Source: Bacteroidota bacterium (GTDB taxonomy: Bacteria; Bacteroidota; Bacteroidia; Bacteroidales; VadinHA17). From it: a stretch of 64,000 nucleotides of DNA. Below, piece after piece: positions 43,941 through 63,687 of this stretch (position 1 is the first letter of the stretch; the number at the start of each line of letters is the position of its first letter). Below the pieces are notes generated by a model. That model had not been told where the DNA came from. It searched no databases and saw nothing but the letters and a program-made list of their open reading frames with translations. The stretch is from contig JAAYDB010000057.1 in NCBI GenBank assembly GCA_012729475.1, forward strand, positions 5,203-69,202, given 5' to 3'. A program made the translations under genes and the position numbers.

Positions 43941-43976
43941 CCCCCTGAAAAAAGAAAGTCAATTCTGTTGATTATC

Positions 43977-46900: not shown

Positions 46901-47273
46901 TAAAAAGAAAAATATATTACAATATTCAGGAGCTTTTAATCCGCTTATTATTTTCCAGGGAGGAGAACTCAAAGAATACAAGGCAGACAGGATGCCCATA
47001 GGTATATATTATGGTGAAGAGATCTCTTTTACCAATTATTTAATAAATGTTTCCAGAGGGGACACTCTTTATATTTTTTCTGATGGTTATGCTTCACAGT
47101 TCGGAGGACCCGGGGGGACAAAATATAAAAAAAGCAATCTTCGTAAATTGCTGTCAGAGATATACTACAGGCCGATGGATGAACAAAGGAAAATCCTTCT
47201 TGAAGAGTTTGAGAGATGGAAAGGTGCTGCCGGTCAGGTAGATGATGTAACCATTCTGGGAATAAGGTTATGA
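43977..47273 (+). CDS. Periplasmic beta-propeller / Y_Y_Y sensor fused via one TM helix to a SpoIIE-type PP2C phosphatase
   Basis: Signal peptide, propeller repeats, Y_Y_Y motif (QYQYFIEG...WSPWS...YTLQIRARD), TM helix, PP2C motifs (SGDFYWI, ADCTGHGVPGAFMS, SDGYASQFGG, DDVTILG). Confidence 0.8.
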   Translation: MRRIFLLVLFILLLPCLLMAQHGSPLLTHYTESRDIENQNWAICQDENNVMLFANRKGILVFDGAEWSLLRIPAVPYSMQKNPYNGKIYIGGYNNFGFLEKDAEGSYSYVSLSGNIVGVGVITKIAFRDSLVYFYGDRSLIRYNLRENVFEMNLNSRPDLPYTGLIITSQNTFVNVTDKGLYRIDSDTLFPIVTGYLTEKEIILFSLPYDEYRVLVGFGSGRLALFDGIKYYDYTIKDENYLQENILSEGIMLGDSTFAFSTLEGGALIVDKYSRDVRFTLNNQNSLPDDEIFAIGSDNTGGLWLSHQYGLTRADLSLPVENYTILPGLHGNLSSALTFNDELYVATSEGVYYLAEVKNYTEVEVLIKKEEPIKTVSVVNEAEMPEQKAEKGRKGIFARILGRTANHIDDIDSDDREEIHVVIQDKPVEQYTWKTVSKLKSIDNIYRKVEGMNEKCRQLVSTPYGILAATNQGLYAIKDHKAELIMKNRYINYIAWTPVGSRYWVGASGGYFAVSFLNGHWRQETPDPGFTNPVHSILQEDSRTLWLGIDNAAYKANLKANNNKVNYIPYVLPNDFPERYMIDMINDTIYIFTEAGIHYYDPGSDRFEFFHEEGASEEPGIIVPVSNHRFYKRGKEWKSLDKPKTKENELSLLKIFDDIVALTLEPDKIWLIDENNQLFGIDRARSSNVKPEVNVYIKSISNGKGVKFTPDNVNFERGDNVLNFEIIAPGYLKQNSTQYQYFIEGNMEDWSPWSERTVYERTIANPGNYTLQIRARDLWGNISEIQSVRFNVKAPFTRTAGFYVATGLLLLLLIIFVIRFRERQLRNKTKFLEDKVQERTFKIESQKQEITSSIEYASRIQMAMLPTEDHIKELFDDYFVIFKPRDIVSGDFYWIGEDSKSVFFTVADCTGHGVPGAFMSTMGISTLNEIISNNHNLQANKILNLLRTKTMTALHQTGKIGEAADGMDIAFCALDKKKNILQYSGAFNPLIIFQGGELKEYKADRMPIGIYYGEEISFTNYLINVSRGDTLYIFSDGYASQFGGPGGTKYKKSNLRKLLSEIYYRPMDEQRKILLEEFERWKGAAGQVDDVTILGIRL

Positions 47274-51174: not shown

Positions 51175-51624
51175 ATGGAAGATATGGCAGCAAGAGTTAT
51201 GTTTTACGGGGTGGATTATATACCTGAGGAAGGATTGACCTATTCGGTTATACCGGCGCGGTACAGAAGAAGGTGGATTTTTGTCAGACATTATGACAGT
51301 GATGGATGGGAGCTTGCAGCCGGGCATATTGAAAAGGGAGAGTCAGCTGAAGATGCTGCGGGCAGAGAGCTTACAGAAGAGACCGGTGCCCGGGAATTTA
51401 TGTTATATCCTGTAGCAACTTATTCTGTGGAAGAGAATGGTGTAAAAGATTACGGGCAACTGTTTTTTGCAGAAGTGACAGAGATGAGTGATCACACTGA
51501 TATTGCAGAGATATCGGAGGTCATTATATGTGATTGGTTACCTGAAGACATGACATATCCGGATATTCAGCCGGTATTATTCAGAAAAGTTATTGGGTAT
51601 ATCAGGGAGAAGAGTCTGTTTTAA
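51175..51624 (+). CDS. NUDIX hydrolase
   Basis: NUDIX box GHIEKGESAEDAAGRELTEETG. ATG at 51175 preferred over the TTG at 51124. Confidence 0.75.
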   Translation: MEDMAARVMFYGVDYIPEEGLTYSVIPARYRRRWIFVRHYDSDGWELAAGHIEKGESAEDAAGRELTEETGAREFMLYPVATYSVEENGVKDYGQLFFAEVTEMSDHTDIAEISEVIICDWLPEDMTYPDIQPVLFRKVIGYIREKSLF

Positions 51625-52805
51625 ATATACTCGAAGCTTATCTTTTTTATCCAGTTTTCCTCAAGCAGGCGTGCTATACGTTTGATTACAGTTCGTCTTA
51701 TCTCCAGTTCTACAGGCAGGGTGGGGTCCTGGTGGGCAATATTTATTCTAGTACCGATAATAAAATGTATTTCGTCACTTTCCATCAACAGGCGGACAAT
51801 TTTGTCAGCAGGGCCCTTTCCCAGTTTAACACTGTTATTGAATGTTTTAAGAATTACATTAACTTTCTGGAGGGTCAGTATGCCTTCAGTGACAAGGTCA
51901 ATACCTTCCAGAAAACTTTCAGGAGGCAGTTCCGGATCTTCAAAAATTAGATTATCAACAATTTTTCTGTTAAGTTCTCGTGCAATTATGTCGGCAGTTG
52001 TTCCTCCGCAGAGAATAACTCTGCCCGGATAATTTTTAACTTTTGCAGCAAGTTCCCTGTCTTTTTCCTTTTCATACGGAGGTCCGGTACACAACAGCAG
52101 TTTTCTGGGTTCACGGAAGTACATGACAGCACAACTGATATCATCTTTTGCCTTGTAATGGTCATTTTTATAGGCCATGCTTACAATTTTCGAGGCCAGC
52201 ATAGATGCCGACAGTGACGGATTACCCGAGACAAGAGTGGCTGCATAAGATGCAATATTATCTCTTTCCCATCCGAAAGGAAATGAATCACTGCCCATTC
52301 CACTCTGTGAAGCTCCGTCGGAACAGATTATTATTCTGTCTTCTTTTTCGGGGATGAAGGTACAGGATCTGAGGATCTTGCCTGCATGTTGTCCTTTTTC
52401 CAGAATTATTTCTTTCCACTGAGGATCAAATAACTTACTACCCCTAAGTATTATGGTTAATGGATTATCGTATTCGAGTATGTTTACTTTTCCGCTGCTT
52501 TCAATATCTGCTATGGTAAACGTAGAATATGCTATTTTTCTGTTACTGCATACAGGCAGGGTATTCATAATTATTTCTGCAATAAGGTCCACCTCCTTGT
52601 GTTCCCGGGTGAAATTGAGGGCCATTGTGGCAGTCAGGGTGGCAAGAATGTTTGCTTTTACACCGTGACCCATACCATCGGATAACACTGCAATTATCCT
52701 GTCCTCTTCCTTAATATATTTATTGAGAAAAACATCGCCGCAGATCCTTTCTCCGTAGTGATTTCTCTGTTGGCTGTTGACCTCAATATAAAAATCCTTT
52801 TGCAT
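51621..52805 (-). CDS. SpoIIE/PP2C-type serine phosphatase with an extra C-terminal domain of about 190 aa; last gene of the hydS-like operon
   Basis: GERICGDVFL and VLSDGMGHGVKANILA PP2C motifs. 11-nt gap to the upstream H-domain gene. Confidence 0.75.
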   Translation of the reverse strand: MQKDFYIEVNSQQRNHYGERICGDVFLNKYIKEEDRIIAVLSDGMGHGVKANILATLTATMALNFTREHKEVDLIAEIIMNTLPVCSNRKIAYSTFTIADIESSGKVNILEYDNPLTIILRGSKLFDPQWKEIILEKGQHAGKILRSCTFIPEKEDRIIICSDGASQSGMGSDSFPFGWERDNIASYAATLVSGNPSLSASMLASKIVSMAYKNDHYKAKDDISCAVMYFREPRKLLLCTGPPYEKEKDRELAAKVKNYPGRVILCGGTTADIIARELNRKIVDNLIFEDPELPPESFLEGIDLVTEGILTLQKVNVILKTFNNSVKLGKGPADKIVRLLMESDEIHFIIGTRINIAHQDPTLPVELEIRRTVIKRIARLLEENWIKKISFEYI

Positions 52806-52816
52806 GAAAATGCTTA

Positions 52817-54694
52817 TCAGTTACCTTTTTTTGTGCTTCTTTTTTTATGTGTTTCAATAATTGAGTTTAACATCTGTTCTGTTTCAGAAGCTCCTTCTCC
52901 AAGAAGAAATCCTATATTCTGAACCATCTCAAGGTTTTTGTCAATAACCTCACTTACTCTGTTGATAAGTTCTTCCCCCTGGACCTCAGGGGCATACAGG
53001 TCGCGAATGACAGCACCGCAGATCTTGTTTTTCTTAATGGGGAAGATTGATATGTTAAGCATCTTTTCTTCTATATGGATATCTTTGCTCACAACGGGTT
53101 CATCTTCTTTCAGGACAAAAGTGAACATATTGTAAACGTTGAAAGGCATAAGCGTTTTCAAATCAGCACCTGCCAGTCCGGGTATTATTTCTGATATTGC
53201 CTGGGCATCTTCCCCAATGATATTTATGAAGCTTTGATTTGAGTGGACAACCTTCAGGGCATTGTCAACTATGACAACAGCACTTGGTAATTTTTCAAGC
53301 ATGTTGTTCATCATCTCTGAGGTATTTTGTGCAAGTTCTTTTTCTTTCAGAGCTAATTCTTCAGATTCTTTCAATGCCCTTTTTGTTTCAGCCAGTTTTC
53401 TGTTAGTCTGTCTAAGAGTCTCTATGTATTCCTGTTTATTGCGGACATTGTATGTGTGGCACATTTCCGGCACCGCAAGTCCTTTGGCAACAGTAGTGGC
53501 AAAGTCGCGGCACGACTTGTATCCACATGCTCCACAATCGAGTTCATCTTTTGGGTCCTGTCTGCCTATTATTTTAAGTACTTCATTTATTGCTTCTTCC
53601 GGAGGTTCCTGTATCCTTTGGTCGTTAGGGGTAAAGGAGCGGGAGAAATCAAGTTTCAACCATCTATCCATATTTTTTTGCCATAAATCCTTGTCAAGAG
53701 TGCTAATTCTTTTCTCTGTATAACGGCTTACGAGAGCCCTTCTCCTGAACTTTTCCATATGGTTCTCCATGCCGGGGCCAAGCAGGCAGCCATGGCAAAA
53801 AAACAGATTAAAATGATGTCTGAGAGTATCAATATATTTATCAAAATCATTAATAGCTTCAAGAGCATCTTCCTTCCCTGAAGCTGTTATGACTCTGCTG
53901 GAAATCATGTCCCTTTTCAGGCCTCCGGCCTGTATTATCCCTGCGGGAACAGGATATAAAGCTCCCCAGTAACCATAAGGCGGATCAAATTCCGACATTT
54001 TTACCAGTCGTTCCTGTATCCCGTATTCATCGAAGAGCTGCCTGAGCTCTATAAATGTCAAAACTCCGTCAACCAGTCTTCCCGACCTGTAAATTAATGC
54101 TTCATCTTTTGCATCAATACACGGACCTATCTGAATGGTGATGACATCTTCTCCATAAAGTTCCTTTACTACCATTGCTGTCGCAATCATCGGTGAAACG
54201 ATAGGAGCCAGATTAGATGCAATTTCCGGATGGAATTTTTCAATCAACTTAACTATAGCAGGACAATTAGCGGTGATGTAGTACTTTCCTTCAGCCTCAC
54301 TGAAGAGTTCTGCATATTTTGACGCAATAAGATCAACACCGAACGAAACCTCATGAACATAGTCGAAGCCAAGTGATCTGATCATAGCCACAAATTTTCT
54401 ATAATCGGTTATGTCATCAAATTCTGAAGCTATACTGGGTTCAATAAGAGCTGCTTTCTTTTTTTCTGATTTAAGGAGGTGTTTAACCTCCTCTTTTGAA
54501 TCACGAAATTCAATGGCACGCGGAGAGCAGGAAACATAACACAGACCACACCCGATACACCTGGAAGGAATAATTGTGGGATGCTCTTTCTGAGGCCTTA
54601 CTTCAATCGCATTAACAGGGCAAACCCGCACACAGGAATATGAATTACGGCATTTATCATCATTGATGTACAGAACCGGCTTCCTTTCGTTCAT
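52817..54694 (-). CDS. hydS: Putative sensory [FeFe]-hydrogenase-like protein (HydS type): 2x ferredoxin-like motifs, H-cluster domain, Cx2Cx4Cx16C motif, PAS
   Basis: H-domain motifs TANCP (54260-54274), GPCIDAKDE, FFCHGCLLGPG. Also CGACGYKSC..(16)..C, a coiled coil, then a PAS-like segment (VVIVDNALKVVHSNQSFINIIG). Confidence 0.75.
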   Translation of the reverse strand: MNERKPVLYINDDKCRNSYSCVRVCPVNAIEVRPQKEHPTIIPSRCIGCGLCYVSCSPRAIEFRDSKEEVKHLLKSEKKKAALIEPSIASEFDDITDYRKFVAMIRSLGFDYVHEVSFGVDLIASKYAELFSEAEGKYYITANCPAIVKLIEKFHPEIASNLAPIVSPMIATAMVVKELYGEDVITIQIGPCIDAKDEALIYRSGRLVDGVLTFIELRQLFDEYGIQERLVKMSEFDPPYGYWGALYPVPAGIIQAGGLKRDMISSRVITASGKEDALEAINDFDKYIDTLRHHFNLFFCHGCLLGPGMENHMEKFRRRALVSRYTEKRISTLDKDLWQKNMDRWLKLDFSRSFTPNDQRIQEPPEEAINEVLKIIGRQDPKDELDCGACGYKSCRDFATTVAKGLAVPEMCHTYNVRNKQEYIETLRQTNRKLAETKRALKESEELALKEKELAQNTSEMMNNMLEKLPSAVVIVDNALKVVHSNQSFINIIGEDAQAISEIIPGLAGADLKTLMPFNVYNMFTFVLKEDEPVVSKDIHIEEKMLNISIFPIKKNKICGAVIRDLYAPEVQGEELINRVSEVIDKNLEMVQNIGFLLGEGASETEQMLNSIIETHKKRSTKKGN

Positions 54695-54720
54695 CTTATT
54701 CTATCATTTCGGAATTATTT

Positions 54721-54966
54721 TTATTTCGAGAATTCCCTGTCAAGGATCTCTTCAATATTCGAAAGTGAGATGCCCTCTATAACCTTATCTCCAATCCTGA
54801 TATTGGGCCCCTTACTACATCTGCCCATACAACGGTCTCCCTTAAAAACAACTTTGTCTTCAAGATAGTTTTTTTTCAGATATTCTCTTATAAAAGTAAC
54901 CAGCTCTTTGTTGCCTCTCGAAAAACAAGAACTGCCCAGACAAATTTGCATCTCATTTACCTGCAT
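54721..54966 (-). CDS. Small thioredoxin-like [2Fe-2S] ferredoxin (NuoE-type fold)
   Basis: 81 aa with Cx4C...Cx3C (CLGSSC ... CMGRC). Confidence 0.7.
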   Translation of the reverse strand: MQVNEMQICLGSSCFSRGNKELVTFIREYLKKNYLEDKVVFKGDRCMGRCSKGPNIRIGDKVIEGISLSNIEEILDREFSK

Positions 54967-55199: not shown

Positions 55200-55217
55200 T
55201 TGTTATTTTATTAACAA
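55200..55217. promoter_or_regulatory. Candidate Rex operator TTGTTATTTTATTAACAA overlapping the -33 region of the hydCBA promoter
   Basis: 17 of 18 match to the clostridial-type Rex consensus TTGTTAA-N4-TTAACAA. It ends 9 nt upstream of the -7 box, and rex is encoded in the same operon. Confidence 0.55.
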
Positions 55218-55233: not shown

Positions 55234-55255
55234 TGTGGTATATAAAACATATCTG

Positions 55256-55726
55256 ATGACAACAGAGATTGATACGATTCTCAGAAATTACAAACAAGGG
55301 AAGAGGGATCAGTTAATTCCTCTGCTTCAGGAGATACAGGAGAAAGCCGGATTCTTGTCGGAGGATTCTATTGTTGAGGTCGGCAGGTATGTAGGGCTAA
55401 GCACAACAAAAATCTACAGTCTTGCGACGTTTTATGACGAGTTCAGGTTCTTGCCGGCAGGAAAGATACAGATTTCCGTATGCAATGGTACATCCTGTTA
55501 TCTGAACGGATCAAAAGCAGTTATCGACAAGTTAAAAGAAGAAACAGGGCTATTGCCGGGGCAAACAGACCGCGATGGTATTCTCAGTTATGATATAGTG
55601 ACCTGTATGGGAGGGTGTAATCATGGACCGGTTATCTGTATTAATGGCGAATACTATAACAATGTAAAAGCGGAGCAGTTGCCTGATATGATCAGAAAGC
55701 TAAGGTATATTTTTGATAATGATTAA
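55256..55726 (+). CDS. hydC: NuoE-like [2Fe-2S] subunit of a trimeric [FeFe]-hydrogenase (HydC-like)
   Basis: Cx4C...Cx3C (VCNGTSC ... CMGGCNHGP). Directly abuts the NuoF-like gene. Confidence 0.8.
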   Translation: MTTEIDTILRNYKQGKRDQLIPLLQEIQEKAGFLSEDSIVEVGRYVGLSTTKIYSLATFYDEFRFLPAGKIQISVCNGTSCYLNGSKAVIDKLKEETGLLPGQTDRDGILSYDIVTCMGGCNHGPVICINGEYYNNVKAEQLPDMIRKLRYIFDND

Positions 55727-57661
55727 ATGGAAGACCTGAAAAAATATCTTTTGGAGAATGTGTTGCTGCATGAGTCTGACACTCTCTCTGATGAGGCTGA
55801 ACAGTGTCTGGAGAAGATCAGGAGGGAGAAACCAGACAAGCCGGTTATTTTTTTATCATCCGGCACTGCAGGGAAAATTGCCGGGTCGGATAAGACTTTT
55901 CAGGCCATGACCACTTTTTTTTCTGAAAACAGATATGATGCAGAAATAGTAAGAGTGGGGTGTAGCGGGCCGGCGAATTTTGAACCCGGTCTTTGTATTC
56001 AGCTTCCGGGCAAAAACAAGCTTTTTTTCAGGAATATAACGGAAGAAAAAGTTGAGCCTTTACTGAACGGTGTTTTTCATAATGATATTAACAAGGATGA
56101 TCTGTTTGGTCAGTTGGGGACGAAAGAATTCGGATTATGGCCGGGAGTACAGTTTCTTGATGAACTTTCCTTTTTTTATCACCAGAAACGGGTTGTACTT
56201 GGTAAGTACGGATGCTATGATCCCGAAAGTATTGAAGAATATATAGCCCGGGGTGGTTACCGTACATTCGTAAAGACTATCAGGCATTACACCTATGAAG
56301 AGGTATGTGATATTGTTGTACAGAGCGGATTAAGAGGAAGAAGTGGAGGAGGCTATCCTACCGGTCTGAAGTGGAAGCAGGTCCTTAACTCAGGAGCCTC
56401 AACAAGATATCTGATATGTAATGGCAAAGAGAGTGATCCGGGAGCTTTCACTGACCGGCTTATTCTTGAAAACGACCCTCACAGATTGATAGAAGGAATT
56501 GCAATAGCTGCTTATGCTACAGGGGCGGCACAGGCTATAATATTTTTCCACAGAGGTTCGGATCATATTATGCAAAGGCTTGAAAAAGCAATTGACAGTG
56601 CCAAATCATATGGTCTTCTGGGCCACAATATTTTGTCCAGTGCCTATGACCTCGAAATCATTCTAAGGAAGGAACCGGGAGCATTTGTTTGTGGGGAGGA
56701 GACAGCACTGATCAGTGCTCTTGAGGGCCGAAGAGGGATGCCTCAGCTGAAACCTCCTTATCCGACAACTTCAGGTCTTTTTGGAAAACCTACAGTGATA
56801 AACAATGTGGAAACCCTGATGAATGTGCCTCTTATTATGCAAAATGGTCCTGAGTGGTTCCGTTCTCTCGGAACAGAAAACAGTCCGGGCACTAAAATTT
56901 TTGCTGTTGCAGGGAAAGGCCGTATGTCAGGAGTTATAGAGGTTGAGATGGGTACCAGCATAAAAAGTATTGTTGAAGACATTGCTGATGGAGTAAAAGA
57001 GGGTAAGAAGCTGAAAGCTGTACAGATGGGAGGTGCTTCAGGGTCGTTTATTACACCTGAAAACCTGGATGTAATAGTTGATTATGAAGAATTGAGTTCC
57101 AGAGGTATTATGATGGGCTCAGGTGGTTTCATTGTTATTGATGAGACAATTTGTATGGTCGACCTTGTAAGATATTACATGGAGTTTATGCATGCCGAAA
57201 GCTGTGGAAAATGTATACCCTGCAGGGAAGGAACAGGACGTATGCTGGAGATACTCGAAAGTATTATAAGGAAACCCGCCAGTGAAGATTCAGGTACCAC
57301 TCTGGAGCGGTTCAAGGGAGTTATGCAGCTGGAAACCATTGCTTCGGTAATGAGAGATACTTCTATGTGCGGACTGGGCCAGACAGCCCCTAATCCCTTT
57401 ATAAGTGCCCTGGAAAATTTCAGGGAGGAATTTGAAGAACATATTTTTGACAGGATATGCAGGGCTAATATATGCAGAGGCCTGAGATCCTTTTCTATTG
57501 ATGTGGAAAAATGTACCGGGTGTACAGCCTGTGCATCAAAATGTCCTGTAAATGCTATTTATGGCACCCGTCTTCAGCCTTTTTTTATCGTCGAAGAAAA
57601 GTGTACGGGGTGTGGTATATGTTATGATGTTTGTAAGTTCAGTGCAATAAAAGTCAAATAG
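55727..57661 (+). CDS. hydB: NuoF-like flavoprotein subunit (HydB-like): FMN/NAD(H) site, N3-type 4Fe-4S, C-terminal 2x[4Fe-4S] ferredoxin domain
   Basis: GRSGGGYPTGLKW, ESDPGAFTDR, ESCGKCIPCREG, CTGCTACASKCP and CTGCGICYDVC. Confidence 0.85.
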   Translation: MEDLKKYLLENVLLHESDTLSDEAEQCLEKIRREKPDKPVIFLSSGTAGKIAGSDKTFQAMTTFFSENRYDAEIVRVGCSGPANFEPGLCIQLPGKNKLFFRNITEEKVEPLLNGVFHNDINKDDLFGQLGTKEFGLWPGVQFLDELSFFYHQKRVVLGKYGCYDPESIEEYIARGGYRTFVKTIRHYTYEEVCDIVVQSGLRGRSGGGYPTGLKWKQVLNSGASTRYLICNGKESDPGAFTDRLILENDPHRLIEGIAIAAYATGAAQAIIFFHRGSDHIMQRLEKAIDSAKSYGLLGHNILSSAYDLEIILRKEPGAFVCGEETALISALEGRRGMPQLKPPYPTTSGLFGKPTVINNVETLMNVPLIMQNGPEWFRSLGTENSPGTKIFAVAGKGRMSGVIEVEMGTSIKSIVEDIADGVKEGKKLKAVQMGGASGSFITPENLDVIVDYEELSSRGIMMGSGGFIVIDETICMVDLVRYYMEFMHAESCGKCIPCREGTGRMLEILESIIRKPASEDSGTTLERFKGVMQLETIASVMRDTSMCGLGQTAPNPFISALENFREEFEEHIFDRICRANICRGLRSFSIDVEKCTGCTACASKCPVNAIYGTRLQPFFIVEEKCTGCGICYDVCKFSAIKVK

Positions 57662-57666
57662 CTGAT

Positions 57667-59388
57667 ATGCTTTTTACTATTCAGGTCAATAACAGGAAAA
57701 TCAAAGCTGAAAAAGGAGAAACTATTCTGTCAGCTCTTAATCGTAACGGCATCAGGATCCCGACTCTTTGCAGGATGGCTGATTTTTCTCCAACCGGAGC
57801 CTGCCGGATATGTGTTGTTGAAGTGGAAGGAAGAGACCGTCTTGTAACTGCCTGTTCACAACCTGTGGAAGAATGGATGAAGATCAGAACACATTCTCCC
57901 CGTGTTATAACTGCACGCAAAACAATTGTGGAAATGCTGTTATCAAATCATCCTGATGACTGCCTTTATTGCGATAAAAACCTTAATTGTGAATTACAGA
58001 GACTGGCTGAAGAGTTGAATATAAGAGAAAGGCGTATTCGTGCAAAAAAAATAAAACCCCGTCTTGACCAGTCGAGCCCTGCTATTGTAAGAGAGTTATC
58101 AAAATGCATCCTTTGCGGCAGATGTATCAGAGTGTGTGAAGAACTTATATCTGCCAATTCAATCGATTTTATTGGAAAAGGAAGCAAAACACATGTTGGT
58201 CCGGCGATGGACCGTGACTTTAATTTTTCCAGCTGTATTCATTGCGGACAATGCGTTATGGTTTGTCCTACCGGTGCACTTCATGAAAAACATAATTTGG
58301 TGGAAGTACAGGATTACCTTCATCATAACGACATAGCAAAAGTTATTCAGTATTCTCCTCTGGTCACTATAGGTATAGCCGAAGAGATGGGGATAAAATA
58401 TAACAAAGATTTTGACAGGACACTGAATTCCATTCTTCGCAGAATAGGTTTTAACAAAATATTTAATTCAGGAGTAGGAACTGATATCTGTATTACAGAA
58501 ATAGCTGGTCAGCTTCTTGAAAGGATAAAGAACGAAACGGAAGATCCCTTGTATATCTCAGCGTGTCCTTCATGGGTTAAATATGCCGAGCAGTTTATGC
58601 CTGATATCATTCCTCAATTATCAACAGTCAAGTCGCCCCAGCAGTTGACAGGGGGTCTTATTAAGACACTTATTGCAGATAGTTCGGGAATAATGCCTGA
58701 GAAGATTTTTTCGGTATCCGTTACTCCATGCATGGCTATGAAGTTCGAAGCCAGAAGAGATGGTATGATGAGAAAGGGTATCAGTGATGTTGATTCAGTT
58801 ATGACGGTGCGGGAGCTGGCAAGGCTGATAAGGCTTTATGGTATCGATATTTCAAACATTGAGCCTGAACCGGCCGATGAGCCGATGGAGGGAAGTAGTT
58901 CTGCAGCTGGCCTGACTGAAATATCAGGCGGAATTACAGAAGCCGTTTTACGCTTAGTGTATTTTTATGAATACAAAAATGATGCTGATAAGCAGCTATT
59001 CAAGAGATTACGTGCCGGAGGTGCATTCAGGGAAACATCTCTTATGATTGCAAACAGGAAGATAGCAGTTGCCGTTGTTGACGGGCTGACTGGTCTGGAA
59101 AAACTCAGGGCAGCCTTCAATGCAGGCAGAAAATATAATCTTATTGAAGTGATGACTTGTCCGGGAGGATGCATTAACGGCGCAGGTATGCCTTTCGCTA
59201 TGCATGAAATTAACATAAAGTCAAGAAGGAAAATAATATATCAGGCTGATGAAACTGATCCGATAAATCTTCCGTGTAAATCGCCGGTTAACATAAATAT
59301 GTATGATAAATACTTAAAAGAGAATGAGGTATTGTCAGATAAAAAAGTTTTTTATACACATTATATAAAGAGGAATGTATTGTTGTGA
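57667..59388 (+). CDS. hydA: [FeFe]-hydrogenase large subunit, HydA-like (M3 architecture), with non-canonical H-cluster pocket residues
   Basis: N-terminal 2Fe-2S (C35, C46, C49, C63), HPDDCLYC..C His-ligated cluster, 2x CxxCxxCxxxCP. H-domain motifs are ISACPSW, TPCMAMKFE, EVMTCPGGCINGAG. Confidence 0.8.
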   Translation: MLFTIQVNNRKIKAEKGETILSALNRNGIRIPTLCRMADFSPTGACRICVVEVEGRDRLVTACSQPVEEWMKIRTHSPRVITARKTIVEMLLSNHPDDCLYCDKNLNCELQRLAEELNIRERRIRAKKIKPRLDQSSPAIVRELSKCILCGRCIRVCEELISANSIDFIGKGSKTHVGPAMDRDFNFSSCIHCGQCVMVCPTGALHEKHNLVEVQDYLHHNDIAKVIQYSPLVTIGIAEEMGIKYNKDFDRTLNSILRRIGFNKIFNSGVGTDICITEIAGQLLERIKNETEDPLYISACPSWVKYAEQFMPDIIPQLSTVKSPQQLTGGLIKTLIADSSGIMPEKIFSVSVTPCMAMKFEARRDGMMRKGISDVDSVMTVRELARLIRLYGIDISNIEPEPADEPMEGSSSAAGLTEISGGITEAVLRLVYFYEYKNDADKQLFKRLRAGGAFRETSLMIANRKIAVAVVDGLTGLEKLRAAFNAGRKYNLIEVMTCPGGCINGAGMPFAMHEINIKSRRKIIYQADETDPINLPCKSPVNINMYDKYLKENEVLSDKKVFYTHYIKRNVLL

Positions 59389-59460: not shown

Positions 59461-61422
59461 ATGCTGGTCTATACAATTAAAGAGCTTTGTCGTACCTGTT
59501 ACACCTGTGTCAGGGAGTGTCCTGCAAAAGCGATCCGTATAGTGGGGGGACAGGCAGAAGTGATTGATGAGAGGTGCATAGGATGCGGTAACTGTACTAA
59601 AGTTTGCAGCCAGGGGGCAAAGGTATTTCTCCGTACTACCGACAGAGTACTTAAACTGCTCCATAATGGTTCGGATGTAGCTGCAATAGTGGCTCCCAGT
59701 TTTCCTGCTGAATTTGGAGATATACCTGATTATCATTTACTGATAGGTATGATAAGGGCCCTCGGCTTTAAATATGTAAATGAAGTATCATTTGGGGCGG
59801 ATATTGTGGCTGATAAGTACAAAAAGCTTCTGGAAGGCAGTGATAAATACTATATCACATCTGATTGTCCCTCCATAGTCAACTATATAAAGTATTACCA
59901 TCCGGGTCTGGTTGATCGTCTGGCCCCAATAGTTTCACCCATGGTTGCCATGAGCAGGGTTGTCCGCAAAAAATTTGGCAGTAATACAAAAATCGTTTTT
60001 ATAGGTCCGTGTGTGGCAAAAAAAGCAGAAAGTTCTGAGATTGATGAGGTTATTACTTTTCTGGAATTGAGGGACATGCTTACCTCTGCCGGTATATCAC
60101 CTGAGAAGGTTATTCCTTCTGATTTTGATCCGCCCAGGGGAGGCAGGGGCTCTATATTTCCAGTAACGAGGGGCTTGTTACAGACAGCACACATTAATGA
60201 TGATGCCATAACAGGTAATATTATTGCTGCAGAAGGAAGGATAGGTTTTCAGGAGGCTCTTAAGGAACTGGAAGCCGGACTAATAAAGAATCAGCATATG
60301 GAGCTTTTGTGCTGTGAGGGATGCATCATGGGTCCCGGACTTTCCAAGAACGGGAAACAATATACCAGGAGAGCCCTTGTAAGTGCTTATGCCAGTCAGA
60401 AAATGGATGACCTTGATCATAGCTTATGGGAAGAAGCTTTTGACGAATATGGGAAAATTGATTTATCAGTACATCATAAAGCAGAAGATCACAGGTTTGA
60501 AATACCTGACGAGACGGAGATCGAAGACGTACTTATTTCAATGGGCAAGTTTACAAAAAAAGATCATCTGGATTGTGGTGCATGCGGTTATGAGAGTTGT
60601 ATTGAACATGCAATAGCTATTAAGAAGGGTCTTGCTGAAATTGAGATGTGTCTGCCATATACAATAGAAAAATTACATAAATCAGTTCAGGATCTGGCCT
60701 TGTCAAACGAGAAACTTAGCTCTATGAAGGAAGCTTTGAGGCAATCTGAAAAGCTGGCACACATGGGACAGTTGTCAGCCGGTATAGCTCATGAACTGAA
60801 TAATCCACTCGGGGTGGTAATAATGTACAGCAATATTCTCCTTGATGAATGTCAGCCTGAAGATCCTGTTATAGAAGATATTAAACTTATTGTTGAACAG
60901 GCCGGGCGATGCAAGAAAATAGTGGCAGGCCTTCTTAATTTTGCCAGAAAAAATCAGGTTAATCATCAGATAGTCAATGTTAAGGATCTGATAAATCATA
61001 GTTTTGAAAGTGTCATAATCCCGGAGACTATAAAAACGAGTATCGTTGATAAGACGAGTAATCCTGATGCCATGATCGATCCGGAACAAATAATGCAGGT
61101 TACCACAAACCTGATAAAAAATGCTGTTGATGCCATGCATAGCGGAGGAGAACTGATTGTTACTCTTGAGGATACACTGAGTGATGTCAGTATAACCATT
61201 TCGGATACAGGAAGCGGTATCAAAGAAGAAGACAGAGTAAAAATATTTGAACCTTTCTATACAACAAAAGGTATAGGAAAAGGAACGGGCCTCGGACTTG
61301 CAACAGCTTATGGCATTGTTAAAATGCATAAGGGGCAGATAAGTGTAGAATCAAATGATGATCCCGGAGCAGGTCCAACAGGAACAAGTTTTAAAATACT
61401 CCTTCCACGAAGAAAGGAATGA
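59461..61422 (+). CDS. H-cluster-domain protein fused to a histidine kinase (ferredoxin motifs, H-domain, Cx2Cx4Cx16C, coiled coil, HisKA, HATPase_c)
   Basis: CRTCYTCVRECP, CIGCGNCTKVC. H-domain motifs TSDCP (59857-59871), GPCVAKKAE, LLCCEGCIMGPG. CGACGYESC..(16)..C. H-box AGIAHELNNPL, N box NLIKNAVDA, G boxes DTGSGI and GTGLGL. Confidence 0.8.
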   Translation: MLVYTIKELCRTCYTCVRECPAKAIRIVGGQAEVIDERCIGCGNCTKVCSQGAKVFLRTTDRVLKLLHNGSDVAAIVAPSFPAEFGDIPDYHLLIGMIRALGFKYVNEVSFGADIVADKYKKLLEGSDKYYITSDCPSIVNYIKYYHPGLVDRLAPIVSPMVAMSRVVRKKFGSNTKIVFIGPCVAKKAESSEIDEVITFLELRDMLTSAGISPEKVIPSDFDPPRGGRGSIFPVTRGLLQTAHINDDAITGNIIAAEGRIGFQEALKELEAGLIKNQHMELLCCEGCIMGPGLSKNGKQYTRRALVSAYASQKMDDLDHSLWEEAFDEYGKIDLSVHHKAEDHRFEIPDETEIEDVLISMGKFTKKDHLDCGACGYESCIEHAIAIKKGLAEIEMCLPYTIEKLHKSVQDLALSNEKLSSMKEALRQSEKLAHMGQLSAGIAHELNNPLGVVIMYSNILLDECQPEDPVIEDIKLIVEQAGRCKKIVAGLLNFARKNQVNHQIVNVKDLINHSFESVIIPETIKTSIVDKTSNPDAMIDPEQIMQVTTNLIKNAVDAMHSGGELIVTLEDTLSDVSITISDTGSGIKEEDRVKIFEPFYTTKGIGKGTGLGLATAYGIVKMHKGQISVESNDDPGAGPTGTSFKILLPRRKE

Positions 61423-61524
61423 AGATTCTTATCAGTTGAGGCTGTTGTATGTATTGATGGAAAGCTGATTGATATGGGAGGGGAGAATAATTTATTTATT
61501 AGATTGCAAAAAATACACAGAAGG

Positions 61525-61920
61525 ATGAAGAAGAGTGATTTTATGATACTCGTGGCAGATGATGATCCTGATTATCTTTACCAGACGGTAACCAATCTGG
61601 GCAAAGCAGGATACAGGACGGTGGCGGCAGAGAGTCAGGCAGAGGCAGAAGCTGTAATATCAAGAATGAAACCAGATCTTGCAATATTCGATCTGATGAT
61701 GGAAAATGATGACAGCGGTTTTATCCTGTGTTATAAGATACGAAAAAAATATCCTGATGTTCCGGTAATTCTTGCTACGGCAGTCTCACGTGAGACAGGA
61801 ATTACTTTCAGTCTCGATTCTGAAATGGATAAATCATGGATAAGGGCAGACAGATATCTGGAAAAGGGTATCCGGCCTGAACAACTCGATCAGGAAATAA
61901 TGAAATTGTTAAAAATATAA
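61525..61920 (+). CDS. Stand-alone response-regulator receiver protein
   Basis: ILVADDD...DLAIFDLMM...VILATA...EKG receiver pattern with no output domain. The start is ambiguous (61474, 61525 or 61543). Confidence 0.7.
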   Translation: MKKSDFMILVADDDPDYLYQTVTNLGKAGYRTVAAESQAEAEAVISRMKPDLAIFDLMMENDDSGFILCYKIRKKYPDVPVILATAVSRETGITFSLDSEMDKSWIRADRYLEKGIRPEQLDQEIMKLLKI

Positions 61921-61921
61921 T

Positions 61922-63052
61922 ATGGCTGAATTAAAAGTCCTTATTATTGATGATGAACCCGGAATACGTTCCGGCGTAAAAAGGATACTGAAGGATTTTC
62001 ATGTTACTTATCCCTTTATGGATGAGGATTATGTTTTTCATATAATGGAAGCCTCCACAGGAGAGGAGGGAATTGATATCATTGAACAGAACATTCCGGA
62101 TATTCTCCTTCTGGACAATAAATTGCCCGGTATCCAGGGAGTTGACGTTCTGGAGATCATTCGTGAGAAGAAATATGATATTGCTGTTGCCATGATAACT
62201 TCCTATGCTTCTCTTGATGTAGCTGTCAGGGCAACCCGTGACGGTGCAACAGATTTTATACCCAAACCTTTTACTCCACAGGAACTTAAGTCAAGCATTG
62301 AGAATATTTCAAAACAATTGTATCTGAAAAGGATTACCCACGACATGAATCAGGAGGGAAAGAAGATAAGATACCAGTTTCTTTCGGTATTGTCTCATGA
62401 ATTAAAAGCCCCTCTTAATGCTCTTGAAGGATATCTCCTGATGATGCAGGAAAAACAGGCAGGCGACAGGATTGACGATTATATTAATCATATTGACAGG
62501 TCCTTACAGAGAATACAGGGTATGAGGAACCTTATTATGGATCTCCTTGATTTTACTAAGATACGTCTTGAACGGAAAGATGAAAAAATACAGAAACTGA
62601 ATCTGGCAGATGTCGCAGCTGCAGCTTTAGTGACAGTACAGCCTTATGCAATTCAGATGGAAGTTACTGTTAATCTTGATGTGAAGAAGGAGATAATAAT
62701 TATGGCTGACCCGACAGACATAGATATCATTTTTAATAATCTTACAAGCAATGCTGTTAAATATAACAAAGTAGGAGGGAAGGTTGATATTATTATTGAT
62801 AGTGATGATAATGAAGTAATTATGAAATTTGCAGATACAGGCATAGGTATCTCGGAAGATGACAGAAAGATCCTTTTTAAGGATTTTATGCGTGTTAAAA
62901 ACGAACAGACGCGTAACATATCAGGGAGTGGTCTGGGATTATCCATTGTTAAAAAAGTTGTTGAACTTTATTTTGGATCTATTACCGTAGAAAGCAAACC
63001 GGATAAGGGGAGTATTTTTACCATAAGGTTACCAAAAAATCTGAAACATTAA
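61922..63052 (+). CDS. Receiver-histidine kinase hybrid (REC, HisKA, HATPase_c)
   Basis: VLIIDDEPGIR...LLLDNKLPG...KPF receiver. H-box LSHELKAPL, N box LTSNAVKYN, G boxes DTGIGI and GSGLGLS. Confidence 0.8.
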   Translation: MAELKVLIIDDEPGIRSGVKRILKDFHVTYPFMDEDYVFHIMEASTGEEGIDIIEQNIPDILLLDNKLPGIQGVDVLEIIREKKYDIAVAMITSYASLDVAVRATRDGATDFIPKPFTPQELKSSIENISKQLYLKRITHDMNQEGKKIRYQFLSVLSHELKAPLNALEGYLLMMQEKQAGDRIDDYINHIDRSLQRIQGMRNLIMDLLDFTKIRLERKDEKIQKLNLADVAAAALVTVQPYAIQMEVTVNLDVKKEIIIMADPTDIDIIFNNLTSNAVKYNKVGGKVDIIIDSDDNEVIMKFADTGIGISEDDRKILFKDFMRVKNEQTRNISGSGLGLSIVKKVVELYFGSITVESKPDKGSIFTIRLPKNLKH

Positions 63053-63063
63053 ACTAATTGCAA

Positions 63064-63687
63064 ATGAGACTACCGGCAAAAACTGTGGAAAGGCTGAGTG
63101 AGTACCGAAGGACTCTTCTGGAATGCCTGAGCGAAAAAAAGAATTATATTTTTTCACATGAGCTGGCCGCCCGGCTTCATATTACAGCTGTCCAGGTAAG
63201 ACGCGACCTGATGCTGATTGGATATTCCTCAGTGCAACGAAAAGGCTATGATGTAAAAGAGCTTATCGATACAATAGGAACTATAATCGATTCCACTGAA
63301 AGCCTTAATGTTGCAATAATTGGTATTGGGAATTTTGGAAGAGCTTTGGCTGCCTATTTTAAAGGCAAGAGATCGAAGCTTAATCTGGTTGCCTCATTCG
63401 ATACCGATCCTCAGAAAATAAATAAGGTAATAGCCGGAGTGAAGTGCTATCCACACAATGAGCTTGAAAAGATCATCAAGGAGCTTAATATAAAAATTGC
63501 AATACTTACTGTCCCCCCGGAATTTGGAAAAGAAACCGCAGAAGAAATTGTGAGGTACGGAATAAAAGGTATACTGAATTTTACAACTATTCCTGTTAAT
63601 GTTCCATCGTGGGTATTCCTTGAAGAATATGACATGATCACCTCCATCGAAAAAGTTGCATATTTCGTAAAAGAAAACCAGCTATAG
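63064..63687 (+). CDS. rex: Redox-sensing transcriptional repressor Rex
   Basis: N-terminal winged helix (TVERLSEYRRTL...SHELAARLHITAVQVRRDL) followed by a Rossmann motif (IIGIGNFGRAL). Confidence 0.85.
   Translation: MRLPAKTVERLSEYRRTLLECLSEKKNYIFSHELAARLHITAVQVRRDLMLIGYSSVQRKGYDVKELIDTIGTIIDSTESLNVAIIGIGNFGRALAAYFKGKRSKLNLVASFDTDPQKINKVIAGVKCYPHNELEKIIKELNIKIAILTVPPEFGKETAEEIVRYGIKGILNFTTIPVNVPSWVFLEEYDMITSIEKVAYFVKENQL

What the first reader, a model, noticed from the sequence alone, without database searches (positions are those of the whole stretch)
59461..61422. Direct fusion of an [FeFe]-hydrogenase H-domain to a histidine kinase
Seen in sequence: one 653-aa ORF carries, in order, several modules. 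First come two canonical CxxCxxCxxxC ferredoxin motifs. Then comes an H-cluster domain that keeps the cluster-ligating cysteines (TSDCP, GPCVAKKAE, LLCCEGCIMGPG), with Asp where catalytic enzymes have the proton-relay Cys (TSCCP). Next are the Cx2Cx4Cx16C accessory motif typical of sensory HydS proteins and a coiled-coil linker. The ORF ends with a complete HisKA/HATPase_c transmitter (H-box AHELNNPL; N, G1 and G2 boxes). Established knowledge: in-silico hydrogenase classifications list a putative histidine-kinase-linked sensory subgroup, but I know of no biochemical demonstration of H2-controlled autophosphorylation. Inference: this would be a one-polypeptide H2 sensor kinase.
Basis: partly seen in the sequence, partly recalled or inferred. 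Interest (0 to 1): 0.8.

Follow-up and report, generated by a model that had tools for sequence, protein, structure and literature searches.

The report
Hydrogenase-type sensor fused to histidine kinase
One gene of an uncultured Bacteroidales bacterium joins a complete but sensor-type iron hydrogenase module to a signalling kinase, probably to report hydrogen levels; the fusion is real and conserved, belongs to a large catalogued family, and has never been tested biochemically.

Summary
ORF 59461-61422 (653 aa) encodes two [4Fe-4S] ferredoxin motifs, an [FeFe]-hydrogenase H-domain with all four cluster cysteines, a Cx2Cx4Cx16C cluster motif, a long helix and a complete HisKA/HATPase_c transmitter.

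It is not an assembly artefact. More than 7,600 database proteins match it, the best 120 of two searches share the architecture, and it occurs in several phyla.

It fits the putative "histidine kinase-linked" sensory [FeFe]-hydrogenases that HydDB lists as group C1. I found no biochemical test of signalling.

New points from this work:
- The distance from the last cluster cysteine to the phospho-histidine is quantised in heptads (33, 40, 47, 54 or 68 residues). A good AlphaFold model shows one continuous helix, which argues for rigid coiled-coil coupling.
- The cassette sensor-kinase, then stand-alone receiver, then receiver-kinase hybrid is conserved in 76 of 80 Bacteroidales loci and 7 of 7 distant loci. 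It usually lies next to HydABC and HydEFG genes.
- The Asp at the proton-relay position is specific to this Bacteroidales clade. Relatives mostly have Pro.
- The operon ends with rex and starts with a conserved Rex-like operator.
- The neighbouring HydA lacks the canonical proton pathway.

Verdict: a new member of a known but uncharacterised kind, of moderate interest.

The parts
59461..61422 (+). Gene for the hydrogenase-type sensor histidine kinase ('HydHK'), 653 aa
   Evidence: ORF; Pfam architecture; identical database protein P0001 of 653 aa; 80 syntenic orthologues.
59470..59619 (+). N-terminal 2x[4Fe-4S] ferredoxin-like domain (residues 4-53; Cys10/13/16/20 and Cys39/42/45/49)
   Evidence: Fer4 family hits. 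All eight Cys are invariant in 80 orthologues and in the 29-sequence cross-clade alignment.
59677..60336 (+). H-domain (residues 73-292). Cluster ligands are Cys136, Cys184, Cys285 and Cys288. Lys187 is also present. Asp135 sits at the CpI-C299 position, Gly182 at M353 and Leu283 at M497.
   Evidence: PF02906 E 4.7e-43; alignment to solved hydrogenases; conservation; fold match to CbA5H, DdH, CpI and T. kivui HydA.
60574..60651 (+). C-terminal accessory cluster motif C372-x2-C375-x4-C380-x16-C397 (PF04060)
   Evidence: The motif is invariant in the 117 cross-phylum relatives. It is described as the unifying feature of group C/D sensors in PMC8163306 and PMC13104023.
60652..60765 (+). Signalling helix / leucine-heptad linker (residues 398-435; Leu405, 412, 419, 426, then Ala433 and Ala440). 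It continues without a break into the first helix of the dimerisation/phospho-acceptor (DHp) domain.
   Evidence: The AlphaFold model has a single helix 398-463. The Cys397-to-His444 spacing is 47 in 80/80 orthologues and is heptad-quantised across the family.
60763..60954 (+). HisKA (DHp) domain, residues 435-498, with phospho-acceptor His444 (nt 60790-60792)
   Evidence: Best solved relative is ZraS 9jfj, E 1.2e-30.
61078..61413 (+). HATPase_c catalytic domain, residues 540-651, with N, G1, F and G2 boxes
   Evidence: fold match to ZraS with TM 0.76.
61474..61920 (+). Stand-alone receiver (single REC domain; the likely start is the ATG at 61525)
   Evidence: PF00072 E 1.3e-15. DD, Asp73, Thr and Lys are invariant in 77 sequences. 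Present in 76/80 Bacteroidales loci and 7/7 distant loci.
61922..63052 (+). Receiver-histidine kinase hybrid (REC-HisKA-HATPase_c, 376 aa)
   Evidence: The acceptor Asp, the H-box His and the ATP-binding boxes (N, G1, G2) are invariant in 72 sequences. Conserved directly downstream in 76/80 and 7/7 loci.
63058..63687 (+). Rex, the NADH/NAD+-sensing repressor; last gene of the operon
   Evidence: NCBIfam Rex models 4e-58, above the cut-off; present in 72/80 loci.
55200..55217 (.). Rex-operator-like palindrome TTGTTATTTTATTAACAA, 18 nt upstream of the hydC ORF
   Evidence: The same 18-bp palindrome occurs upstream of hydC in 47/61 related loci. 47 of the 52 matches in 1.44 Mb of loci fall in these windows, against 0.95 expected.
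55235..59388 (+). hydC (NuoE-like), hydB (NuoF-like) and hydA (HydABC-type [FeFe]-hydrogenase) immediately upstream, probably co-transcribed
   Evidence: Pfam and NCBIfam hits; HydA vs T. kivui HydA1 7e-128; synteny; gaps of 0, 5 and 72 nt.
51621..54966 (-). Divergent operon: small thioredoxin-like [2Fe-2S] protein, a second sensor-type hydrogenase (HydS-like, 625 aa) and a PP2C/SpoIIE phosphatase
   Evidence: The HydS-like protein is 39% identical to HydHK over 471 aa. Conserved in about 50 loci.

Best explanation
HydHK is a soluble cytoplasmic sensor histidine kinase whose input module is a complete, non-prototypical [FeFe]-hydrogenase.

Shown by sequence:
- It has binding sites for two N-terminal [4Fe-4S] clusters, an H-cluster and a C-terminal [4Fe-4S] cluster.
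- The fourth Cys of that last cluster (Cys397) caps a single long helix with a leucine heptad repeat. The helix runs straight into the first helix of the dimerisation/phospho-acceptor (DHp) domain and carries the phospho-acceptor His444.
- The transmitter is complete.

Inferred mechanism:
1. The protein dimerises through the coiled coil and the DHp domain.
2. H2 reacts at the H-cluster. The resulting change in H-cluster or Fe-S redox and protonation state alters the conformation of the H-domain and C-terminal cluster module.
3. That change passes as a register or rotation shift along the rigid helix and switches the kinase/phosphatase balance at His444.
4. Phosphate goes to the co-transcribed stand-alone receiver and/or to the receiver of the REC-HK hybrid. 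The hybrid acts as a second-tier kinase towards an unidentified output.

The system is co-transcribed with HydABC and Rex, behind a Rex-like operator. Hydrogen level (HydHK, and the paralogous HydS-PP2C branch) and NADH/NAD+ (Rex) would therefore jointly set hydrogenase expression or activity.

In this Bacteroidales clade, Asp135 replaces the usual Pro or Ala at the proton-relay site. This probably gives faster or pH-shifted proton exchange at the sensor's active site.
For: - **Architecture and motifs:**
- **Not an artefact, under purifying selection:** 7,670 proteins match the query at E<=1e-20, and the best 120 share the architecture. At least 557 species-representative genomes encode a relative. 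All ligand and catalytic residues are invariant or nearly so in 80 orthologues at 72-80% identity, and in about 45 distinct 50%-identity clusters.
- **Cross-phylum:** relatives occur in Chloroflexota, Armatimonadota, Planctomycetota and Pseudomonadota MAGs.
- **Sensor-type, not catalytic-type:** C299, M353, M497, E279 and E282 of CpI are all replaced. HydHK is 39% identical to the HydS paralogue, through the C-terminal cluster and the start of the helix, against 26% to HydA.
- **Rigid coupling:** Cys397-to-His444 is 47 residues in 80/80 orthologues. In direct fusions from other clusters it is 33, 40, 47, 54 or 68, all 5 mod 7, in 40 of 45 cases. It is 47 or 40 in 116 of 117 further relatives. 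AlphaFold (pLDDT 85.8) gives one helix, 398-463.
- **Link to hydrogenase biology:** HydABC lies upstream in 70/80 loci. Among 7 distant loci, HydABC-type genes lie upstream in 5 and HydE/G/F maturase genes lie nearby in 6.
- **Conserved partners:** REC and REC-HK are downstream in 76/80 and 7/7 loci, with intact acceptor residues.
- **Rex and its operator:**
- **Asp can act as a relay:** the C299D/C169D variants of group A enzymes keep 30-80% H2-release activity, whereas C299A/S keep less than 1% (PMC6226526).
Against: - No biochemical data exist for any member.
- In the group D sensor TamHydS, H2 does not reduce the C-terminal cluster, so the signal may not be a redox change of that cluster (PMC13104023).
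- The rest of the group A proton pathway is absent: Arg/Lys119 and Lys122 stand where CpI has E279 and E282. What Asp135 achieves is therefore unknown.
- No DNA-binding response regulator lies in the operon or in the 64-kb window, so the output is unidentified.
- The HydE/F/G maturases are not in this window. H-cluster maturation in this organism is inferred from the presence of HydA and from distant loci.
Confidence: 0.68

Rival explanations
1. It senses the cellular redox pool, not H2. The two N-terminal [4Fe-4S] clusters exchange electrons with ferredoxin or with HydABC, and the kinase reads the reduction level of the Fe-S chain. The H-cluster site would be a vestige, or merely an electron sink that vents electrons as H2.
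For: The ferredoxin-like F-domain is fully conserved. The gene is co-transcribed with a ferredoxin/NADH-linked HydABC and with the NADH sensor Rex. In TamHydS the C-terminal cluster does not respond to H2 (PMC13104023).
Against: All four H-cluster cysteines and Lys187 are invariant across phyla, which is hard to explain for a vestigial site. The gene repeatedly lies next to the HydE/G/F maturases. A redox-pool sensor would not need an H-domain.
Confidence: 0.15
2. It is a catalytically competent hydrogenase whose turnover sets the kinase output. In this clade Asp135 restores a proton relay. The protein would then measure electron flux between H2 and a redox partner, rather than equilibrium H2 binding.
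For: Asp at the C299 position is the only substitution that keeps substantial activity in CpI/HydA1. Asp135 is invariant in 80 orthologues and absent from all other clades. The adjacent HydA has lost its own relay Cys.
Against: Downstream of Asp135, the glutamates of the group A pathway are replaced by Arg/Lys. Gly at M353 and Leu at M497 resemble the slow sensor enzymes (PMC8163306). Most family members have Pro at this site and still keep the kinase, so catalysis is not needed for the family's function.
Confidence: 0.1
3. It is an Fe-S-based oxygen or oxidative-damage sensor. The clusters, with or without a [2Fe] subsite, break down on exposure to O2, and this switches the kinase so that the anaerobe shuts down hydrogenase expression.
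For: Four oxygen-labile clusters sit in one protein. Fe-S cluster sensors of O2 are an established class (established knowledge, summarised in PMC13104023).
Against: This does not explain conservation of the specific H-cluster pocket, the link to the maturases, or the existence of a paralogous HydS branch in the same locus.
Confidence: 0.05
4. The fusion is an assembly or frameshift artefact that joins two separate genes.
For: None found.
Against: The same 651-653-aa reading frame occurs in 80 independent genome assemblies and in hundreds of metagenome contigs. The junction is a conserved continuous helix with fixed spacing.
Confidence: 0.01

Closest known systems
HydDB [FeFe]-hydrogenase group C1, 'histidine kinase-linked (putative)' (Sondergaard, Pedersen & Greening 2016, PMC5037454)
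   Same: A sensor-type H-domain protein associated with histidine-kinase signalling and proposed to sense H2. A Bacteroidales example next to an Hnd/HydABC-type hydrogenase was noted in Petrimonas mucosa (PMC7768429). HATPase_c-containing C1 proteins were noted in Hydrogenedentota (PMC11406978).
   Different: The class is defined only in silico. According to PMC11406978 the best-matching C1 reference in HydDB lacks the HATPase_c domain, so 'linked' does not always mean fused. I could not run the HydDB classifier, so the subgroup assignment (C1 versus an HK-bearing C3 type) is untested. In the papers I read, the heptad-quantised linker, the conserved REC / REC-HK cassette and the clade-specific Asp are not described.
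Thermotoga maritima HydS (group C, M2f) and the HydS/HfsB type linked to PP2C phosphatases
   Same: Two N-terminal [4Fe-4S] motifs, an H-domain without the C299 relay Cys and without M353/M497, and a C-terminal Cx2Cx4Cx16C cluster (PMC8163306, PMC10407848). The window's own HydS-like paralogue is 39% identical to HydHK over 471 aa.
   Different: TmHydS ends in a PAS domain and has Ala at the C299 position. Here there is no PAS: the helix after the cluster runs directly into a histidine kinase, and the residue is Asp.
Thermoanaerobacter mathranii HydS (group D, M2e)
   Same: The same cluster complement and a putative sensory role. It is encoded next to a bifurcating hydrogenase and a kinase-like ATPase (PMC8163306).
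   Different: TamHydS has no fused output domain. It has Ala at C299, Ser at M353 and its own Glu-based proton path (PMC10407848). H2 does not reduce its C-terminal cluster (PMC13104023).
[NiFe] regulatory hydrogenase HoxBC with the kinase HoxJ (group 2b), Ralstonia/Cupriavidus
   Same: Functional analogy: a slow, sensor-type hydrogenase controls a histidine kinase of a two-component system that regulates hydrogenase genes (PMC5037454 Table 1; PMC5665086).
   Different: Different metal site and fold, with no homology in the sensor part. The sensor and the kinase are separate polypeptides that form a complex, and HoxJ carries a PAS domain.
NtrB/AtoS/ZraS-type cytoplasmic transmitter domains
   Same: The HisKA H-box HE(L/I/V)NNPL and the HATPase_c boxes are shared. 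Best sequence and fold matches are ZraS 9jfj (E 1.2e-30; TM 0.76) and the NCBIfam AtoS and ZraS models.
   Different: Those kinases use periplasmic or PAS input domains and pair with sigma-54 activators. Here the input is a hydrogenase module, and the adjacent partners are a single-domain receiver and a receiver-kinase hybrid.

Membership tests
[FeFe]-hydrogenase H-domain proteins | Pfam PF02906 (Fe_hyd_lg_C) match above the gathering score | tested here: met
   148 bits against a cut-off of 22.1, E 4.7e-43, residues 73-292. The fold matches CbA5H, DdH, CpI and T. kivui HydA at E 1e-21 to 1e-18.
[FeFe]-hydrogenase H-domain proteins | Four H-cluster cysteines (CpI C300, C355, C499, C503) and the Lys that binds a cyanide ligand (K358) | tested here: met
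   Cys136, Cys184, Cys285, Cys288 and Lys187 align to these positions. They are invariant or nearly so in 80 orthologues and invariant in 117 distant relatives. The third motif has CxxC spacing, one residue shorter than in group A, as in the HydS paralogue.
[FeFe]-hydrogenase H-domain proteins | The protein actually carries a [2Fe] subcluster and reacts with H2 | not testable with these tools
   Needs expression, maturation and FTIR/EPR. Indirect support only: distant homologues lie beside hydE/G/F.
Putative sensory [FeFe]-hydrogenases (groups C/D, 'HydS') | [quoted passage not shown] | tested here: met
   Two CxxCxxCxxxC motifs, with all eight Cys invariant.
Putative sensory [FeFe]-hydrogenases (groups C/D, 'HydS') | C-terminal Cx2Cx4Cx16C cluster motif | tested here: met
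   C372/C375/C380/C397; PF04060 E 2.2e-7; invariant. The motif definition comes from PMC8163306.
Putative sensory [FeFe]-hydrogenases (groups C/D, 'HydS') | Loss of the group A proton-relay Cys (C299) and of M353/M497 | tested here: met
   Asp135, Gly182 and Leu283 occupy these positions. E279 and E282 are also replaced, by Lys119 and Lys122. The Asp is atypical: characterised sensors have Ala and relatives mostly have Pro.
Putative sensory [FeFe]-hydrogenases (groups C/D, 'HydS') | C-terminal PAS domain (M2f subclass, as in TmHydS) | tested here: not met
   No PAS hit at E<=0.01. Only 47 residues, all helical, separate the cluster motif from the phospho-His. It is therefore not an M2f-type HydS. 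Some relatives do have a PAS inserted, with spacings of 141-396 residues.
HydDB group C1 (histidine kinase-linked) | Assignment by the HydDB classifier or a phylogeny | not testable with these tools
   HydDB is not available here. Proxies: 39% identity to the HydS paralogue against 26% to HydA, and a Bacteroidales protein in the same gene context was classed as C1 by others (PMC7768429).
HisKA-family sensor histidine kinases (two-component transmitters) | DHp domain with an H-box His, and a catalytic domain with N, G1, F and G2 boxes | tested here: met
   HisKA 44 bits and HATPase_c 86 bits, both above the cut-offs. His444, Asn554, Asp582, Gly584, Gly586, Gly608 and Gly610 are invariant. ZraS is the best solved relative.
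HisKA-family sensor histidine kinases (two-component transmitters) | A cognate receiver encoded nearby | tested here: met
   A stand-alone REC and a REC-HK hybrid lie directly downstream, are conserved in 76/80 and 7/7 loci, and have intact acceptor Asp residues. Which one is the true partner is untested.
HisKA-family sensor histidine kinases (two-component transmitters) | ATP-dependent autophosphorylation and phosphotransfer | not testable with these tools
   Needs a radiolabelled-ATP or Phos-tag assay.
[NiFe] regulatory hydrogenase / HoxJ system (group 2b) | [NiFe] large and small subunits in complex with a separate PAS-kinase | tested here: not met
   No [NiFe]-hydrogenase domain appears among the listed Pfam and NCBIfam hits, and there is no PAS. 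The resemblance is functional only.

The most novel reading that the evidence does not exclude
HydHK, the stand-alone receiver and the receiver-kinase hybrid form a dedicated, ancient three-protein phosphorelay for control of [FeFe]-hydrogenases and their maturases. I found no description of it in the papers I read. It is conserved from Bacteroidales to Armatimonadota, and related fusion proteins occur in Planctomycetota and Chloroflexota MAGs.

Within it, the Bacteroidales lineage has rewired the chemistry. The sensor has gained a protonatable relay (Asp135, next to Arg/Lys119) and an extra Cys284. The 'catalytic' HydA of the same operon has lost the whole canonical proton pathway (Ala299, Ile279, Gln282) and gained an invariant Glu418.

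On this reading the sensor would be a kinetically competent hydrogenase that reads H2 flux, and HydA would use an undescribed proton route.
Probability: 0.3. Interest if true: 0.65.

Novelty: new member of a known kind. Interest (0 to 1): 0.5.

Why it matters
Whether group C/D [FeFe]-hydrogenases really sense H2, and how they pass the signal on, is still open. The studied proteins TmHydS and TamHydS have no measurable output, and the 2026 TamHydS study argues against a simple redox switch of the C-terminal cluster.

A natural fusion to a histidine kinase offers a direct readout in a single polypeptide: autophosphorylation and phosphotransfer to two adjacent receivers. The H2-sensing hypothesis then becomes testable in vitro.

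The heptad-quantised helix gives a concrete, falsifiable model for signal transmission.

The family is abundant in anaerobic digesters, peat and fen soils and sediments. H2 partial pressure governs fermentation and syntrophy there, so the regulator is ecologically relevant. It could also serve as a part for synthetic H2 biosensors.

The instance in this window is not itself a discovery of a new class.

Tried and rejected
- **First AlphaFold run.** With 40 close orthologues it gave a poor model (pLDDT 64), which I discarded. A 91-sequence cross-phylum alignment gave a usable one. Model coordinates are not exposed to the script tool, so I could not measure the Asp135-Lys119 distance or any cluster-to-cluster distance.
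- **Rex box.** My first pattern used the wrong spacer (6 N) and found nothing meaningful. The 18-bp form with a 4-nt spacer found the site.
- **HydE/F/G maturases and a DNA-binding response regulator.** I searched for both in the whole window and found neither.
- **Promoters and terminators.** The scan of 54.6-64 kb was no better than shuffled sequence, so it says nothing about internal promoters.
- **Literature.** Searches for any H2-dependent autophosphorylation by an [FeFe] sensor found nothing. Greening et al. 2016 (ISME J) is not in the library, so its original description of group C could not be read.
- **Asp135 as a family-wide feature.** Rejected: relatives have Pro, Thr, Ala or Ser at this position.
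- **Artefactual fusion.** Rejected.
- **Asp135 / Arg-Lys119 covariation across clusters.** Uninformative, because Asp occurs in only one clade.
Full report
**1. What is in the sequence**

The ORF runs from 59458 (GTG) or 59461 (ATG) to 61422 on the + strand. The ATG start gives 653 aa. That is the length of an identical database protein and of nearly all orthologues.

Pfam finds, in order:
- a 2x[4Fe-4S] ferredoxin domain, residues 4-53
- the [FeFe]-hydrogenase H-domain PF02906, residues 73-292, E 4.7e-43
- the small Fe-S motif PF04060, residues 370-399
- HisKA, residues 435-498
- HATPase_c, residues 540-651

Alignment to solved structures places TSDCP opposite TSCCP. Asp135 therefore occupies the proton-relay position (CpI C299) and Cys136 the cluster-ligand position. 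The CpI entry that scores best is 6GLZ, which is the C299D variant.

Other substitutions relative to CpI are M353 to Gly182, M497 to Leu283, E279 to Lys119 and E282 to Lys122. S319 (Ser159) and K358 (Lys187) are kept. There is no hydrophobic stretch that would suggest a membrane anchor.

**2. It is real, conserved and common**

A search of 5.8 billion proteins returned 7,670 hits at E<=1e-20. The best 120 are 651-680 aa long, 77-80% identical to the query, and share the same Pfam architecture. JGI annotates them as 'iron only hydrogenase large subunit-like protein / nitrogen-specific signal transduction histidine kinase'.

A scan of one genome per species found at least 557 genomes with a relative. 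The best 80 are all uncultured Bacteroidales MAGs from fens, peat, soils and digesters. The window therefore comes from such an organism.

In 80 orthologues the following residues are invariant or differ in at most two sequences: all 16 Fe-S cysteines, Asp135, Lys187, His444 and the N, G1, F and G2 boxes.

A search of representatives at 50% identity found about 45 separate clusters with the complete fusion among the best 150 hits. A profile search found the same architecture in MAGs named Chloroflexota, Armatimonadota, Planctomycetota/Phycisphaerae and Pseudomonadota. An assembly or frameshift artefact is excluded.

**3. Sensor type, not catalytic type**

HydHK is 39% identical over 471 residues to the second H-domain protein of the window (52817-54694, minus strand). 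That protein is followed by a PP2C phosphatase, the classical HydS/HfsB arrangement. The similarity runs through the C-terminal cluster motif and into the first part of the helix. Against the HydABC-type HydA next door it is only 26% over 274 residues.

The features that the literature uses to define the putative sensory groups C and D are:
- two N-terminal clusters
- Cx2Cx4Cx16C
- loss of C299, M353 and M497

All of these are met (PMC8163306; PMC10407848). The PAS domain of the M2f subclass is absent. HydDB lists a group C1 'histidine kinase-linked (putative)' (PMC5037454).

A Bacteroidales C1 gene next to an Hnd-type hydrogenase was noted in Petrimonas mucosa. HATPase_c-bearing C1 proteins were noted in Hydrogenedentota. 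I could not run HydDB, so the subgroup label is a proxy assignment.

**4. How the signal probably travels**

The second AlphaFold model, built from a 91-sequence cross-phylum alignment, has mean pLDDT 85.8. It shows a single helix from residue 398 to 463. The helix starts immediately after Cys397, the fourth ligand of the C-terminal cluster, and carries His444. Leu405, 412, 419 and 426, then Ala433 and Ala440, form a heptad stripe. They are invariant or nearly so.

The spacing from Cys397 to His444 is 47 in all 80 orthologues. Among direct fusions from other 50%-identity clusters the spacings are as follows:

| Spacing (residues) | 33 | 40 | 47 | 54 | 68 | other (38, 44, 44, 48, 49) |
|---|---|---|---|---|---|---|
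| Clusters | 3 | 6 | 25 | 4 | 2 | 5 |

So 40 of 45 fall in the same class modulo 7. Of the 20 spacings that differ from 47, 15 differ by a multiple of seven. In 117 further relatives the spacing is 47 (113 cases) or 40 (3 cases).

Length changes that come in whole heptads are what a continuous dimeric coiled coil requires if it is to keep its register. I take this as the strongest computational evidence that the cluster module and the kinase are mechanically coupled.

The fold search matches residues of about 1-430 to [FeFe]-hydrogenases and the C-terminus to ZraS. No sensor-type hydrogenase and no hydrogenase-kinase fusion appears among the 50 best fold matches in the PDB copy (entries to April 2026).

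The nature of the primary signal is inferred, not shown. The 2026 TamHydS study found that H2 does not reduce the C-terminal cluster. The signal may therefore be a conformational change of the H-domain and cluster module rather than a redox change of that cluster.

**5. The partners and the operon**

Downstream lie three genes:
- a stand-alone receiver (61474/61525-61920)
- a REC-HisKA-HATPase hybrid (61922-63052)
- Rex (63058-63687)

The gaps between them are 1-100 nt. Upstream, hydC, hydB and hydA are separated by 0, 5 and 72 nt.

The order PP2C <- HydS <- [2Fe-2S] | hydC -> hydB -> hydA -> HydHK -> REC -> REC-HK -> rex is kept in the related Bacteroidales loci. The counts out of 80 are REC 76, REC-HK 76, Rex 72 and HydA 70; most of the shortfall is due to short contigs. 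Acceptor Asp, Thr and Lys residues, and the H-box of the hybrid, are invariant.

In seven distant loci at 40-45% identity, including an Armatimonadota chromosome, the cassette HydHK -> REC -> REC-(PAS)-HK is present 7 times out of 7, often with overlapping stop and start codons. HydABC-type genes lie directly upstream in 5 of the 7. HydE/G/F maturase genes lie within 8 kb in 6 of the 7.

No DNA-binding response regulator lies in the operon or elsewhere in the window, so the final output is unknown.

An 18-bp palindrome, TTGTTATTTTATTAACAA, lies 18 nt upstream of hydC. It resembles the Rex operator TTGTGAAnnnnTTCACAA, a consensus I recall from the literature and did not look up here. The same palindrome is found upstream of hydC in 47 of 61 related loci. 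It accounts for 47 of the 52 matches in 1.44 Mb of related sequence, where 0.95 would be expected. The operon is therefore probably repressed by its own last gene product in response to NADH/NAD+.

**6. The Asp**

Characterised sensors have Ala at the C299 position (A131 in TmHydS, A137 in TamHydS). In the HK-fused family the residue is Pro in 96 of 117 relatives, and Ser, Thr, Ala or Asn in the rest. In the 50%-identity clusters it is Pro, Thr, Ala, His, Ser and others.

Asp occurs only in the query's own Bacteroidales clade, where it is invariant in 80 of 80 sequences. It comes together with Arg/Lys at the E279 position (76 of 80) and an extra Cys284 beside the ligand Cys285.

In group A enzymes, C299D is the one substitution that keeps 30-80% of H2-release activity, while C299A or C299S leaves less than 1% (PMC6226526). 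The clade may therefore have regained fast proton exchange at the sensor site. With the rest of the pathway replaced by basic residues, this remains a hypothesis.

**7. Comparison with known systems, and novelty**

Functionally, the closest proven system is the [NiFe] regulatory hydrogenase with the kinase HoxJ. That is an analogy, not homology. By descent, the protein belongs with the putative sensory [FeFe]-hydrogenases and matches the description of HydDB group C1. It is a new, uncharacterised member of a known in-silico kind.

In the papers I could read I did not find four things described:
- the heptad-quantised helix
- the cross-phylum three-gene cassette
- the clade-specific Asp
- the Rex operator

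These refine the picture. They do not create a new category.

Interest is moderate (0.5). A specialist would not be surprised that such a fusion exists. The fusion is nonetheless the most direct experimental handle on the unresolved question of whether, and how, [FeFe] sensors signal.

**8. Side observation on HydA**

The HydA of this operon is 7e-128 to T. kivui HydA1. Across 70 orthologues it differs from group A enzymes at these positions:

| CpI position | Residue in this HydA clade |
|---|---|
| C299 | Ala in 65 of 70; never Cys |
| M353 | Thr or Ser |
| E279 | Ile, Leu or Val |
| E282 | Gln |
| G418 | Glu, invariant |

The canonical group A proton pathway is thus dismantled in a protein with a HydABC-type architecture. 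HydA proteins next to distant HydHK genes instead carry TSCSPGW and MPC. This deserves its own follow-up.

Noticed in passing
window 57667-59388 (+), hydA: The HydABC-type HydA lacks the canonical group A proton pathway. It has Ala at CpI-C299 (ISACP; 65/70 orthologues, never Cys), Thr/Ser at M353, Ile/Leu/Val at E279 and Gln at E282. It also has an invariant Glu418 where group A enzymes have Gly. In CpI the C299A change abolishes activity, so this clade may use another proton route or be very slow.
   Followed up: partly
window 55200-55217: A Rex-operator-like palindrome, TTGTTATTTTATTAACAA, lies just upstream of hydC. It is conserved in 47/61 related loci and is almost exclusive to that position (47 of 52 matches in 1.44 Mb). 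rex is the last gene of the same operon, which suggests autoregulation.
   Followed up: yes
window 51621-54966 (-): A divergent operon encodes a small thioredoxin-like [2Fe-2S] protein, a second sensor-type hydrogenase (Asn at the C299 position; its C-terminal ~200 aa have no Pfam hit and may be PAS-like) and a PP2C/SpoIIE phosphatase with an unassigned C-terminal ~160 aa. Two paralogous sensors with different outputs thus flank one hydrogenase operon.
   Followed up: partly
L083-L086 (distant loci), about 0-8000: In other phyla the HydHK cassette follows a HydABC in which HydB is about 1,000 aa long and fused to a GltD/Pyr_redox_2 module. It also follows a further sensor-type H-domain protein with an N-terminal HATPase_c_2 domain, plus PHP and small HATPase genes. 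HydA there has a TSCSPGW motif, with Ser at the position of the ligand Cys300, as in the A. woodii HydA1 sequence from the PDB.
   Followed up: no
L086 12170-18002: In one distant locus the cassette is followed by [NiFe]-hydrogenase maturation genes (hypA, hypB-like, hypF, hypC, hypD, hypE) rather than by hydEFG.
   Followed up: no
window 43938-47273 (+): A 1,111-aa protein has a C-terminal SpoIIE/PP2C domain, and its N-terminal ~900 residues have no Pfam match. This is a second large PP2C-type signalling protein a few kb from the hydrogenase locus.
   Followed up: no
window 30583-33327: A Crp/Fnr-type regulator (30583-31254, +) lies next to a 7TMR-DISM membrane histidine kinase (31273-33327, -). 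They appear unrelated to the finding.
   Followed up: no
window 6770-21196: By ORF sizes and order this looks like a housekeeping region: a tyrosine recombinase (6770-7660, Pfam hit), then an EF-Tu-sized ORF at 8599-9786 and rpoB/rpoC-sized ORFs at 13030-21196. The tuf/rpoBC identities were not checked with a domain search. If correct, they mark the window as chromosomal.
   Followed up: no
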